Assembly (NCBI GenBank): GCA_036338595.1
Contig: JAYZBV010000023.1
Span: forward strand, 1 to 21,694
Direction: 5' to 3'
DNA: 21,694 bases
Source of the DNA: Planctomycetota bacterium
Lineage (GTDB): Bacteria > Planctomycetota > UBA8108 > UBA1146
The position numbers are program-made. The stretch's first letter is position 1. Each line of letters begins with the position of its first letter. Positions 18,001 to 21,694 of the stretch are shown piece after piece.

Positions 18001-21000
18001 AGACCATCATCTTCATCATCGCCTGCATCTGGCCCATTCCAGTTGGTTTGACCCCAGGTCGAGCTCGACTTCACGAGTGCCTGATCTTGTTCGAAAACGA
18101 TCGAGGTCCCCTCCAGTTCGATCAGGAAGGAGGAGGGAATCCTCGGCTCTCGCTCCTGAAAGCGGCGACGCCAGGAGGCGTGAGTCATCACCAACTGCTC
18201 TCGAGCGCGGGTGACTCCGACGTAGAGCAACCTTCTTTCCTCTTCCACGCCTGCGGCTTCACCGTGGCGCGAGTGGGGGATCAGGGACTCCTCGACTCCA
18301 GCGATGATGACCCTGTCGAATTCGAGACCCTTGGCCGCATGGAGTGTCATCAGCGAGACCTGACCCTTCTCCTCGCTTCGCATCTCTGCATCGGTGACGA
18401 GTGCAATCCTCTCGAGGAACAGCGACATCGGGTCGATCTCCTCGAACTCGGGGTCGTTCACGGCACTGGCGGCGACGCTGGAGAGGATCTCCTGCGTTTC
18501 TGCCGCAGCCGCGACCAGTTCCTCGAGATTGCGTTCGCGCTCCTGCCAGGATTCAGGTTCGGATCTTTCGAGATGCGCCATGTATCCACTCGCCTCGATC
18601 GCAACCGTGACCTGAGCGGAGAGAGGCGCGCCAACATTCTCGGAGAGCCGTTCGATCACGTCTCGCAACTGTTCGAGTCCCTTTTTTGCCTTGCCGCGGA
18701 TCTCTTCGTGGCCATCCAGAGAGCGGAGATGTTCCCCGAGGCTGCGTCCGGCATCTCGAGCAGCGTCCTCGAAGCGTTCGATGCTGACCTTGCCGATGCC
18801 ACGAGCAGGCACATTGATGATGCGTTGAAGGGCCACATCATCGCGAGGCGATCGTGCCACTCGCAGGTACGCAAGGACGTCCTTGACCTCCTTGCGCTCG
18901 TAGAACGACATGCCTCCGACGACGCTGTAGAGGATCCTCCGGCGCACGAACTCCTCCTCGAAGACCCTCGAGAGAGAGTTGACCCGGTAGAGGATGGCCA
19001 TCTCCGAGGCAGAGCAGCCCTCTTCCAGCCAGGCCTCGATGTGAGTGGCGATCTGCGCCGCTTCGGTGCGCTCGTCCCTCAACTGCTGAACTCTCACTTC
19101 GGCTCCGTCGGGGTTTTCGGTGAACAGTTTTCGTTCCCCGAACTCACTGCCGGCGAGTCGCCCCGCAACCTCCAGGATCTGTGGAGTGGATCGGTAGTTC
19201 TGATCGAGCGTGATGACGGAGTGTTCCGGGAAGTCCTCCCGGAATCGTCGGAAGTTGTCGGGACTGGCTCCCCTCCACGAGTAGATCGATTGATCAGGAT
19301 CACCGGTCACGCACAGGTTTCGGTGCTCTTCGGCGAGTAGTTTTGCCATCAGGTATTGCGGACGATTGGTGTCCTGGAACTCGTCTATCATCACGTATTC
19401 GAATCGAGTTCTGAGCCGATCCAGTACATCCGGGTGTTCTCGTAAGAGCCTGACGACGAGGATCAGAAGATCATCGAAATCGGCAGCATCTCGCTCCTCG
19501 AGCAATTCCTGATAACGATAAAAGATGCGTACGAGCTCTTTTTCTCTGAAGGTGGAGGACTCCTCGCTCGCCTGTTCTGGCGAGGTCATGTGGTTTTTCC
19601 AGTGACTGATTCGCGAAAGCGTGGCGCGAGGAGGGAATGAGGTGCGGTCCAGTTTCAGTTCCTTCAGGATCGTACCGATCAGTTGTTGCTGATCGGCACT
19701 GTCGTAGATGGAGAAGCGGCCGCTATAGGGTTCGATCCTGTGCACGTGGCGACGAAGCAGACGGGCACAGAAGGAGTGAAAGGTGCGCAGTACCGGCGTG
19801 CCTTCATCGAGATCGAGAGAGGATGGGCCGAGGAATCCAGAGGTCGGAAACAGCACACCACGACCTGGCCCCAGCAGCGCCATCGTTCGACGAAGCATCT
19901 CATCGGCAGCCTTGTTGGTGAAGGTGATGGCAAGGATCGATCCTGGAGAGACCCCGGCAGCGACGAGGTCGGCGATGCGATGGGTCATCACCCGGGTCTT
20001 GCCGCTGCCCGGGCCGGCGATCACCGCCATCGGCCCCCTGTGGCTGGTGACGGCCTTCTGCTGGCCAGGATTCAATGCCTCGGTCATCGCTCATTCACCT
20101 TGCTGGAGGCCTTTCGAGGCATCGGTTCGTGAAGCCGGTGGAACTGGCTCTGACGGGGGCACTCGAAGGAAACCGCCCCTCGACCCCGATTGCTGCCGGG
20201 AGCCATGTTGTCCCCGATGGAGGGGAACCGCAAGGTCAGCAACGATCTACATCGATTCCCGTTCGCATTGACGAGATCGGCCCCGTTACTTATGATCCTG
20301 GACTCACTTCCGAACTCCTGGGTACTGGATCCGGCGCTGCCGGGGAGCCCTCATGGAGTGGCAACTGGAGTGGACACCAACGCCTGAGTTCCGTCGAGGA
20401 GGCTTCCGTGGATGCAATGAGCGAAATTCCGCTGCGTGATCTGATCCTGACGAGGGAGACCTCGGTCGATTTCTACCACGAGGCTCGCCAGGGAGTGACC
20501 TCCCGACGTGAGGCGATCGATGAACTCGAGGTGATCATCGATGAAATCGAAGATCCATTCCGTCGTGGTGTCGTGCTCGACCTGCTCGGTCGGCGTCCGG
20601 AAGCACGCAAAATGCTGCATAGTTGCAAGGACAATGTCCTGTGCATGCACCTTCTCGGCAAGTTGTTGCTCGAGGAGGGGGATTCTCGCGCAGCACTGGG
20701 CGTGCTGGAGGAAGGGTGGGCCAGCTGCGGAGCGGGCGAGCCCCGCGTTGGAATGTTGCTGTGTGAGGCGTTGATCCTCGAGGACCAGGTGGAGGCTGCA
20801 CAGGATCTACTGCGCAAGTTACCGGTAGAATCGGGCCATCCGAGGATCTGCTATCTCGAAGGGTTGCTGGCCCAGCATGAGGGCGAATATCATCAGGCTC
20901 TTGAATACTACACTACAGCAGCTGAAGGCAATCCGGATGAAACGCGCTTTCAGTTCCGTCTCGGCTACATGCATTCGCTTTATGGCCAGGAGGAACGGGC

Positions 21001-21694
21001 CATCGAGGCCTATCGGATGTGCCAGCGAAGTACTCCCCTCTACGCCCATGCGATGATCAACCTCGGTGTCCTCTACGAGGATGCGGAGCGCTTCGAGGAG
21101 GCGATCACCTGTTACCGGTTGGTACTCCACTCCAACTCAAACCACGGGCGAGCGCGTCTCTACCTGCGTGATGCCGAGGCGTCCCAATCGATGTACTACG
21201 ATCGGGATAAGGAGAAGGAGAGCGTTCGCAAGCATCAGGTACTTCAAATTCCTGTTACCGAATTCGAACTCTCGGTACGAAGCCGCAATTGTCTTCAGAA
21301 GATGGGGATCCACACCCTTGGTGATCTCGTCAGCAAGAGTGAAGCGGAACTCCTCTCCTACAAGAACTTTGGCGAGACCAGCCTGCAAGAAATCCGCAAG
21401 ATCCTGAACCAGAAGAAACTGCGCCTCGGAGAAGCGGTTCGCAGTGACGACACCTTCCTGCTTTCGGTCGATGGTGAGGCCGCGTCACTTCTGGGAGAAC
21501 CGGTCAGCATTCTTGAACTCTCCAGCAGGAGCCAGCGTTGTATGGACAGGCTCGGAATCGAGACCATCTCTGATCTGATGCAACGAAATGAGCTCGAACT
21601 GGTCAGTCAGAAGAACTTCGGTGTCACCTCCCTCAACGAGGTGAAGCGAAAACTCTCCGATCGCGGGTTGAACCTGGCGAACGGTTAGAGGGGA

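What a model noticed while it worked through the whole genome (the two positions that open the first line are those of the whole stretch)
20129..21688. Free-standing TPR protein with two RNA polymerase alpha C-terminal domains
g00368 is not RpoA yet ends in two tandem copies of the RNA polymerase alpha C-terminal domain (aCTD), preceded by TPR repeats; both copies keep the ELSxRxxxC and NFGxTSL segments that they share with the aCTD of the genome's own RpoA. I read it as a DNA/activator-binding aCTD 'decoy or adaptor' that occupies UP-element-like DNA or aCTD-binding regulators and couples them, via the TPR part, to another partner. New: an unstudied, Planctomycetota-wide transcription factor class built from a polymerase domain.
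Evidence so far: pfam.tsv: RNA_pol_A_CTD 2-66/67 at aa 363-427 (E 6e-24) and 10-66/67 at 454-510 (E 2.5e-17), TPR_16/TPR_8 at 239-336; separate rpoA is g00203 on C15. Alignment of both copies with the RpoA aCTD. Database search: 6876 proteins at E<1e-10 among 8000 scored; all 120 listed carry PF03118, 119 of them together with TPR families, lengths mostly 420-460 aa; sources name them 'tetratricopeptide repeat protein' or 'RNA polymerase subunit alpha C-terminal domain-containing protein', Planctomycetota where named. Paper search for alpha C-terminal domain+tetratricopeptide+Planctomycetes+RNA polymerase: 0 papers.
(Added by a program. Inside this text positions count along the whole contig: contig position 1 is position 1 of the stretch shown here. 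"Call 12" and the like, gene names such as g00115 and contig names such as C1 are that model's own, and its searches are not shown. The text may have been shortened before it was handed on; [...] marks where a part breaks off. The agent that wrote the report below was given it as the finding of a first reader that could run no searches.)

Follow-up and report, generated by a model that had tools for sequence, protein, structure and literature searches.

The report
Planctomycete TPR protein with two alpha-CTDs
This is a real, unstudied gene found in almost every planctomycete that joins a protein-binding TPR scaffold to two spare copies of RNA polymerase's DNA-touching tail domain, and its likely counterpart in a cultured species appears essential.

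Summary
The protein has 426 aa (GTG 20408 to TAG 21688), not 519.

It is an all-helical cytoplasmic protein (AF2 pLDDT 88.7). It has a TPR solenoid, a conserved connecting helix and two RpoA-type alpha-CTD domains (Pfam 138 bits, cut-off 23.8). It lacks the RpoA N-terminal domains. The true rpoA sits between rpsD and rplQ on contig C15.

- **Distribution:** 118 of 121 evenly drawn Planctomycetota genomes give at least 3 alpha-CTD matches.
- **Conservation:** in 15 genomes, copy 1 is more conserved (72% mean pairwise identity) than the polymerase's own alpha-CTD (58%). Copy 2 is less conserved (48%).
- **DNA-contact residues:** copy 1 keeps R265, N268, G296 and S299. Copy 2 usually has K/R at position 268.
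- **Synteny:** the gene lies directly upstream of ruvA in 72 of 118 genomes, here across a contig junction.
- **Essentiality:** a TraDIS study lists Plim_0602 (COG labels TPR and RpoA) among essential genes. I did not verify it by sequence.

No functional study turned up. My best reading is a DNA-tethered adaptor of the transcription or DNA machinery, and this is inferred. The decoy idea is untested. The scan has noted this family at least 8 times on other genomes.

The parts
20408..21688 (+). Coding sequence of the TPR + 2x alpha-CTD protein, 426 aa, GTG start, TAG stop
   Evidence: ORF. 426-aa relatives begin at the aligned codon. Pfam on the 426-aa form. AF2 model pLDDT 88.7.
20129..20407 (+). 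Most likely untranslated leader or intergenic DNA.
   Evidence: Homologues cover only 82% of the 519-aa call. In-frame stops lie 4-73 codons upstream in 23 of 25 relatives. An extra T behind 20387 occurs in two RNA-library contigs.
20268..20296 (+). Sigma-70-like promoter match TTGACG-17-TATGAT (10 of 12)
   Evidence: 1 found against 0.2 expected in shuffles. A consensus match only.
20396..20402 (+). Shine-Dalgarno GAGGAGG, 5 nt before GTG 20408
   Evidence: Sequence. The same motif is conserved in relatives.
20432..21187 (+). TPR-type helical solenoid, residues 9-260. The last three repeats (about 145-260) are the conserved part.
   Evidence: Pfam TPR families. 16 helices in the AF2 model. 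Foldseek finds only TPR proteins. Invariant columns F183, G193, N218, L219, E224, D225, R248. Some genomes lack the N-terminal part.
21203..21244 (+). Conserved connecting helix, residues 266-279, preceded by the invariant M262/D265 (MYYDRD)
21215..21409 (+). alpha-CTD copy 1 (Pfam residues 270-334), the most conserved part of the protein
   Evidence: PF03118 E 4.1e-24. Aligned to E. coli alpha-CTD 248-317. Mean pairwise identity 0.72 in 15 genomes. One clade, support 100/96.
21428..21487 (+). Linker between the two alpha-CTDs. Residues 347-354 have pLDDT below 50.
21488..21658 (+). alpha-CTD copy 2. It evolves faster, and position N268 is K/R in most members.
   Evidence: PF03118 E 1.9e-17. 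Mean pairwise identity 0.48, N268 kept in 2 of 15. One clade, support 96/75.
21554..21694 (.). 141-nt exact overlap with the start of contig C5, where ruvA begins 10 nt after this gene's stop codon
   Evidence: RuvA_N and HHH_5 on L005:146-742.
17817..20087 (-). Divergent upstream neighbour: UvrD/PcrA-type helicase, 756 aa
   Evidence: Pfam UvrD-helicase, UvrD_C, PcrA_UvrD_tudor. Conserved neighbour in 25 of 80 related loci.

Best explanation
The gene encodes a 426-aa cytoplasmic adaptor that has been inherited vertically since the ancestor of the Planctomycetota.

Proposed mechanism:
- alpha-CTD copy 1 is a helix-hairpin-helix module under tighter constraint than the polymerase's own alpha-CTD. 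I propose it holds the protein on DNA through the same minor-groove and backbone contact surface that RpoA uses (R265, N268, G296, S299 equivalents, plus a family-specific R at 267). It may also use the conserved acidic patch at 259/261.
- Copy 2 gives a second, looser contact.
- The TPR solenoid, chiefly its last three repeats, holds a conserved protein partner. That partner would belong to the transcription machinery or another DNA-transaction machinery.

Shown: the architecture, the start codon, the phylum-wide presence, the conservation pattern and the synteny.
Inferred: DNA binding, the existence and identity of a TPR partner, and the link to transcription.
For: - Architecture and fold: two PF03118 domains and TPRs. 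AF2 pLDDT 88.7, all-helical.
- DNA-contact residues of E. coli alpha-CTD, with numbering from the alignment. In 15 genomes, R265 is kept in 15 of 15 for both copies. For copy 1, N268 is kept in 14, G296 in 15 and S299 in 15.
- Constraint: mean pairwise identity is 0.72 for copy 1, 0.58 for the RpoA alpha-CTD of the same 15 genomes, and 0.48 for copy 2.
- Each copy forms one clade (100/96 and 96/75), so both already existed in the common ancestor of the sampled genomes.
- 118 of 121 evenly drawn genomes have at least 3 PF03118 matches. The other three show contig-end fragments or a TPR-plus-one-domain form.
- 332 clusters (50% identity) at E<=1e-30.
- Likely essential: Plim_0602 carries both COG0457 (TPR) and COG0202 (RpoA) labels in Fig. 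S3 of PMC10632474. The main text describes that figure as the essential genes (I read passages and supplement rows).
- Contigs from 4 RNA libraries of 4 studies cover parts of the gene.
Against: - There is no direct evidence of DNA binding or of any partner.
- Position 298, a key DNA-backbone lysine in E. coli (role recalled from the literature), is T in 13 of 15 for both copies. The phylum's RpoA also has T, in 15 of 15.
- Position 297 is acidic in copy 1 (E13/D2) where RpoA has K (10 of 15). That change could weaken DNA contact.
- Net charge of copy 1 (+0.6) is no higher than that of RpoA's domain (+0.2).
- The essentiality rests on COG labels. I did not match Plim_0602 by sequence, and the table with insertion indices (Sup. 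Data 2.xls) could not be read.
- Contigs in RNA libraries do not prove transcription.
- pTM 0.62 leaves the arrangement of the domains open.
Confidence: 0.45

Rival explanations
1. Partner of RuvA / DNA recombination and repair factor. The two helix-hairpin-helix modules bind branched or damaged DNA, and the protein works with RuvA, with which it is co-transcribed.
For: - ruvA starts 10 nt after the stop codon, across the C23/C5 junction.
- The family gene lies within about 0.9 kb upstream of ruvA on the same strand in 72 of 118 genomes that have a RuvA_N match, spread over 44 of 70 taxonomic families. Of these, 47 come from a hand comparison of the rows listed. The other 25 come from 71 genomes checked by fetching the DNA and running hmmsearch.
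- A uvrD-type helicase is the divergent upstream neighbour in 25 of 80 loci.
- One RNA-library contig runs 169 nt past the window's end.
Against: - In 46 of the 71 genomes checked directly, no alpha-CTD lies upstream of ruvA.
- In related loci of other orders the downstream gene is tgt-yajC-secDF instead: 32 of 68 loci, against ruvA in 23.
- In this genome ruvB and tgt lie together on C34. The pattern therefore looks like the remains of an ancient ruvA-ruvB-queA-tgt-yajC-secDF housekeeping cluster. That order in Firmicutes is recalled, not tested. Its genes share no function.
- The domain is specifically the polymerase alpha-CTD type, not the RuvA type.
Confidence: 0.17
2. Protein-only scaffold. 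The alpha-CTD copies have been re-used as protein-binding modules, for example for sigma region 4, RNAP core or regulators. The protein would be an RNAP-associated or assembly factor that does not touch DNA.
For: - Copy 1 is nearly invariant over almost its whole surface, not only the DNA face.
- The acidic 259/261 patch is kept (D/E in 15 of 15, E261 in 14 of 15). In E. coli this patch contacts sigma-70 region 4 (role recalled from the literature).
- The K297-to-E/D change and T298 remove positive charge at the second hairpin.
Against: - R265 is invariant in both copies, and N268, G296 and S299 are kept in copy 1. This is hard to explain without a nucleic-acid ligand.
- No partner is known.
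Confidence: 0.15
3. alpha-CTD decoy or anti-activator. It competes with the polymerase's alpha-CTDs for activators or for UP-like DNA and so damps transcription.
For: Two alpha-CTDs on one chain mimic the pair offered by the alpha dimer. Both share the phylum-specific T298 with RpoA.
Against: - A competitor would be expected to track RpoA's alpha-CTD. Instead copy 1 is more conserved than RpoA's domain and carries its own invariant residues: F260, R267, M273, E297.
- Near-universal single-copy presence and likely essentiality fit a core function better than a damping one.
Confidence: 0.1

Closest known systems
C-terminal domain of the bacterial RNA polymerase alpha subunit (RpoA alpha-CTD; Pfam PF03118; solved E. 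coli domains 1COO, 3K4G, 1LB2)
   Same: Both C-terminal domains match PF03118 over nearly its full length. They align without gaps to E. coli residues 248-317, E about 1e-12. R265, N268, C269, G296 and S299 are kept in copy 1. Both copies share T298 with the phylum's own RpoA.
   Different: There is no RpoA N-terminal dimerisation or insert domain. There are two copies in tandem on one chain behind a TPR solenoid. The gene is not in the rpsD-rpoA-rplQ cluster. Family-specific invariant residues are F260, R267, M273 and E297. Copy 2 has K/R at position 268.
NusA C-terminal acidic repeats AR1-AR2 (tandem helix-hairpin-helix domains, AR2 binding the alpha-CTD). Recalled from the literature, not tested here.
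   Same: Two helix-hairpin-helix type domains in tandem at the C-terminus of a transcription-related protein.
   Different: No NusA N-terminal, S1 or KH domains were found by Pfam. The domains here are of the alpha-CTD family itself.
TPR-plus-DNA-binding-domain regulators such as the RRNPP family (PlcR, NprR). Recalled, not tested here.
   Same: A TPR ligand-binding scaffold is joined to a small DNA-binding module.
   Different: Those have an N-terminal HTH and are accessory, lineage-variable quorum regulators. This protein has C-terminal alpha-CTDs and no HTH. It is a near-universal single-copy gene in a housekeeping neighbourhood.
Small alpha-CTD-like proteins (NCBIfam NF005841, PRK07758 'hypothetical protein', 95 positions) and the alpha-CTD-like stretch of the BREX kinase PglW (NF033442)
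   Same: They show that alpha-CTD-like modules occur outside RpoA. Both models hit the alpha-CTD region weakly.
   Different: Scores are far below the cut-offs: 44.3 against 115 bits, and 30.6 against 990 bits. This protein is not a member of either.

Membership tests
RpoA (RNA polymerase alpha subunit) | N-terminal dimerisation/assembly domains (PF01193 RNA_pol_L, PF01000 RNA_pol_A_bac) | tested here: not met
   Pfam on the 426-aa protein finds neither. The genome's rpoA (L002:742-1731) has both.
RpoA (RNA polymerase alpha subunit) | Score above the NCBIfam/TIGRFAM equivalog cut-off | tested here: not met
   TIGR02027 scores 124 bits against cut-off 227.8. NF003513 scores 127.2 against 302.
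RpoA (RNA polymerase alpha subunit) | Gene in the rpsD-rpoA-rplQ ribosomal cluster | tested here: not met
   The true rpoA on C15 is flanked by S4 and L17 genes. This gene lies between uvrD and ruvA.
alpha-CTD domain family (PF03118) | Match above Pfam's gathering score over most of the 67-position profile | tested here: met
   138 bits against 23.8. Two stretches match profile 2-66 and 10-66.
alpha-CTD domain family (PF03118) | DNA-contact residues R265, N268, G296, K298, S299 (E. coli numbering; their roles are recalled from the literature) | tested here: inconclusive
   Copy 1 keeps R, N, G and S but has T at 298. Copy 2 keeps R, G and S, with R at 268 and T at 298. The phylum's RpoA also has T298 in 15 of 15. 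Binding itself was not testable.
TPR repeat proteins | Repeated helix-turn-helix pairs that match TPR profiles and form a solenoid | tested here: met
   TPR_2, TPR_1, TPR_19, TPR_8 and TPR_16 are above their cut-offs. The AF2 model has helix pairs over 9-260. Foldseek top hits are consensus TPRs and the Pex5 TPR domain.
The Planctomycetota TPR + 2x alpha-CTD family (unnamed; 'DNA-directed RNA polymerase subunit alpha C-terminal domain-containing protein') | Full-length similarity with the same domain order and a length of about 420-460 aa | tested here: met
   Relatives of 96% down to 39% identity cover residues 1-426 of the corrected protein. 264 of 264 fetched family proteins have exactly two alpha-CTD domains by my HMM.
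RRNPP-type TPR regulators | N-terminal HTH DNA-binding domain | tested here: not met
   No HTH family appears among the Pfam hits.

The most novel reading that the evidence does not exclude
Planctomycetota RNA polymerase works with an essential, phylum-specific accessory subunit. This subunit supplies a second pair of alpha-CTDs in trans, docked on the enzyme or on sigma through the TPR solenoid. Promoter recognition in this phylum would then use up to four alpha-CTD modules. Copy 1, more conserved than RpoA's own domain, would be the principal upstream-DNA reader.
Probability: 0.15. Interest if true: 0.85.

Novelty: new variant of a known kind. Interest (0 to 1): 0.62.

Why it matters
The alpha-CTD is a textbook module of bacterial promoter recognition and activator contact, and it is known almost only as part of RpoA. 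Here a whole phylum keeps two extra copies on a separate TPR protein. One copy is under stronger constraint than the polymerase's own, and the gene's likely counterpart in a cultured species is listed as essential. Yet no paper I could find discusses it.

If it acts on transcription, it would be a lineage-specific core component of gene expression, in a phylum already known for unusual cell biology. If it acts with RuvA, it would be a new player in recombination. Either way it is directly testable in Planctopirus limnophila, which has genetic tools.

Tried and rejected
- **Homodimer prediction** (2 copies): score 0.00, no verdict. It counts neither for nor against self-association.
- **Foldseek against PDB**: only generic TPR proteins. 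No solved structure has this architecture.
- **Origin of the two copies:** a 53-row tree on 63 columns gives each copy one clade, but it cannot place them relative to RpoA. E. coli groups weakly with copy 1 (88/81). I dropped the two degenerate copy-2 rows (G083, G103) before building it. The origin stays open.
- **Fused forms**: only 2 longer proteins, P0265 and P0266, both rare. P0265 looks like a merged gene call.
- **Shorter forms**: 1698 hits of 30-233 aa. Most are on contigs of 1-2 kb and are probably fragments. A few are on long contigs (P0278, P0328, P0383) and may be true short forms. Not followed up.
- **Rfam on the whole window**: nothing in the 320-nt leader.
- **Greedy ORF-neighbour clustering**: it lost 20 of 80 loci to spurious antisense ORFs, so I replaced it with tblastn.
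- **A first regex for picking the two domains** caught only 15 of 264 proteins. A first column table was shifted by one residue. Both were replaced by the MAFFT-based table.
- **Paper searches that found nothing relevant:** (one marker-gene list).
- **Earlier scan note of a tRNA-Thr directly upstream:** not the case here. The only tRNA-Thr is at 12938-13013.
- **RNA runs**: parts of the stretch without cover are not evidence of anything.
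Full report
**1. The observation**

The + strand is open from 20075 to 21688. There are two stretches, and several TPR families score above their cut-offs. A six-frame scan of the whole assembly puts the two alpha-CTD copies at 21215-21409 (E 4.1e-24) and 21488-21658 (E 1.9e-17). 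It finds the genome's rpoA on contig C15. That rpoA has the N-terminal RNA_pol_L and RNA_pol_A_bac domains and lies between the S4 and L17 genes. The protein studied here has neither domain and falls far below the RpoA equivalog cut-offs.

**2. The start codon**

Relatives of 96-76% identity have 426 aa and begin MDAMSE or MDSMSE. GTG 20408 follows GAGGAGG at a distance of 5 nt.

Among 25 related loci of at least 51% identity:
- The aligned codon is GTG or TTG in 14.
- An in-frame stop lies 4-73 codons upstream in 23.

Two nearly identical contigs from RNA libraries carry an extra T behind 20387, which would break the long frame. A promoter-like site lies at 20268-20296, inside the supposed extension. 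The gene is therefore 20408-21688 and encodes 426 aa.

**3. Anatomy**

An AlphaFold2 model built on a 51-row alignment has mean pLDDT 88.7 and pTM 0.62, and it is all-helical. Its parts are:
- helix pairs over residues 9-260;
- a conserved helix at 266-279;
- alpha-CTD 1 to about residue 340;
- a partly disordered linker (347-354);
- alpha-CTD 2 to about residue 421.

Foldseek against the PDB returns only TPR proteins. The conserved TPR columns lie in the last three repeats. Some genomes have shorter forms that lack the N-terminal repeats.

**4. Distribution**

- In 121 genomes drawn evenly from the phylum (70 families, 112 genera), 118 give at least 3 PF03118 matches, that is RpoA plus two.
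- The three exceptions show contig-end fragments (G006, G081) or a TPR part followed by one alpha-CTD in another frame (G057).
- A full scan of 1.84 billion cluster representatives finds 332 clusters at E<=1e-30.
- Named relatives and Atlas clusters are Planctomycetota.
- Two bins labelled as other phyla (L025, L060) carry typical planctomycete neighbours.
- I could not search other phyla directly.

**5. What the two copies keep**

I used E. coli numbering from the alignment. I compared the three alpha-CTDs of the same 15 genomes.

| Feature | RpoA alpha-CTD | Copy 1 | Copy 2 |
|---|---|---|---|
| Mean pairwise identity | 0.58 | 0.72 | 0.48 |
| R265 kept | 15 | 15 | 15 |
| N268 kept | 13 | 14 | 2 (K/R in 10) |
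| G296 kept | 15 | 15 | 13 |
| S299 kept | 13 | 15 | 13 |
| Position 298 is T | 15 | 13 | 13 |

Position 298 is K in E. coli. Its being T in all three looks like a phylum trait that links the copies to the phylum's own RpoA.

Copy 1 also has residues of its own: F260, R/K267, M273, and E/D297 where RpoA has K. In 239 family proteins the same pattern holds. For that set I read the values one column to the right of the labels printed, because that table was shifted. The MAFFT-based table has the correct register.

Each copy forms one clade (100/96 and 96/75). Their relation to RpoA is unresolved.

In one family (G083, G103) copy 2 has lost the second hairpin motif.

**6. Neighbourhood**

The window ends 6 nt after the stop codon, but its last 141 nt are identical to the first 141 nt of contig C5. 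There a ruvA gene (RuvA_N, HHH_5) starts 10 nt after the stop.

*Across the phylum sample.* The family gene lies just upstream of ruvA on the same strand in 72 of the 118 genomes that have a RuvA_N match. These fall in 44 of 70 families. The 72 were counted in two ways:
- 47 by hand comparison of the rows listed. Only 150 of 383 PF03118 matches were listed.
- 25 of the 71 remaining genomes, by fetching up to 940 nt upstream of ruvA and running hmmsearch.

Of those 71, 46 had no alpha-CTD upstream of ruvA. One of the 46 (G007) had only 157 nt before a contig end.

*In the 80 most similar public loci.* These loci are ranked by similarity and are not an even sample. Among the 68 with at least 1.5 kb of downstream sequence:
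- ruvA follows in 23;
- tgt follows in 32, usually with yajC and secDF after it;
- a SpoIID-domain gene follows in 7.

*In this genome.* ruvB and tgt lie together on C34.

I read this as the gene sitting at the head of an old ruvA-ruvB-(queA)-tgt-yajC-secDF housekeeping cluster that broke at different points in different lineages. The cluster's order in other phyla is recalled, not tested. This shows vertical inheritance and co-expression with housekeeping genes. It is weaker as evidence for a shared function with RuvA.

**7. Essentiality and expression**

An earlier scan note led me to the TraDIS study of Planctopirus limnophila (PMC10632474). I read passages of its main text and rows of two supplementary files.

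- The main text calls Fig. S3 a display of the essential genes.
- In the data for that figure, Plim_0602 appears under both COG0457 (TPR repeat) and COG0202 (RNAP alpha subunit). It sits next to Plim_0499, the rpoA named in the text.
- A gene with both labels fits this architecture.
- I did not match its sequence, and the table of insertion indices could not be opened.
- The term Plim_0602 occurs in no paper's main text in the library.

Contigs from four RNA libraries of four studies cover parts of the gene. One covers it at depth 70. One runs 169 nt beyond the window's end. Contigs in RNA libraries do not prove transcription.

**8. Explanation**

The most economical reading is a DNA-tethered adaptor. 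Copy 1 would contact DNA, and perhaps sigma or RNAP through the acidic 259/261 patch. Copy 2 would add a looser contact. The TPR solenoid would hold a conserved partner. I put this at 0.45.

The rivals are:
- a RuvA-linked recombination factor (0.17);
- a protein-only scaffold (0.15);

The decoy fits least well with a copy 1 that is more conserved than the domain it would mimic, and with the likely essentiality. None of these readings is tested.

**9. Novelty**

The domains are known. The architecture is visible in databases under generic names. The scan itself has noted the family at least 8 times on other genomes. My nine answered paper searches found no study of its function. I rate it a new variant of a known kind, with interest 0.62.

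Noticed in passing
window 21554-21694 and G000 contig C5 1-141: The last 141 nt of this contig equal the first 141 nt of contig C5. This looks like an assembler k-mer overlap, so the two contigs abut and ruvA follows this gene.
   Followed up: yes
window 20387: Two near-identical contigs from RNA libraries of two studies carry an extra T behind 20387. This is strain variation in the leader and would break the long ORF call.
   Followed up: partly
window 12938-13013 (-) and 13125-14039 (-): A tRNA-Thr(CGU) lies next to a tyrosine recombinase (Phage_integrase plus SAM-like N domain). The long ORF listed at 10194-13115 overlaps the tRNA, so its real start must lie further in. This could be an integration site.
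   Followed up: no
window 1809-13115 (-): A run of very large ORFs (528, 813, 1061 and 973 aa). They carry P_proprotein, dockerin and C-type lectin domains or have no Pfam match. GC dips to 0.535 at 7001-8000.
   Followed up: no
window 16141-17832 (-): A 563-aa ORF with a NicO-type nickel-transporter domain overlaps the end of the uvrD-type gene by 16 nt. It is conserved next to it in 21 of 80 related loci.
   Followed up: partly
G000 contig C34 5329-8641 (-) (L204, L206): ruvB and tgt lie about 1.7 kb apart on one strand, away from ruvA. So ruvA and ruvB are not adjacent in this genome.
   Followed up: partly
L116 (G083) and L129 (G103): In one taxonomic family, alpha-CTD copy 2 has lost the NFGxTSL hairpin (it reads GIKxNY), while copy 1 is intact.
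   Followed up: partly
L088/L091 (G057:C8:25802-26918): In a small-genome lineage (2.1-2.2 Mb), the TPR part and a single alpha-CTD lie in different frames 95 nt apart. This could be a frameshift, a split gene or a reduced form.
   Followed up: no
genomes G021, G053, G089 (6 PF03118 matches), G075, G118 (5), G022, G078 and others (4): Some genomes carry a second paralogue of the TPR + 2x alpha-CTD gene. In G022 and G078 only one of the two copies lies next to ruvA.
   Followed up: no
P0265 (1023 aa) and P0266 (781 aa): Rare long proteins join an alpha-CTD to sigma-54 domains plus VIT/VWA (P0265), or to sigma-70 region 4 (P0266). P0265 may be a merged gene call.
   Followed up: partly
P0278, P0284, P0328, P0383 (172-206 aa, on contigs of 32-493 kb): Short proteins consist of little more than the two alpha-CTDs and sit on long contigs. 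They may be true TPR-less forms or late start calls.
   Followed up: no
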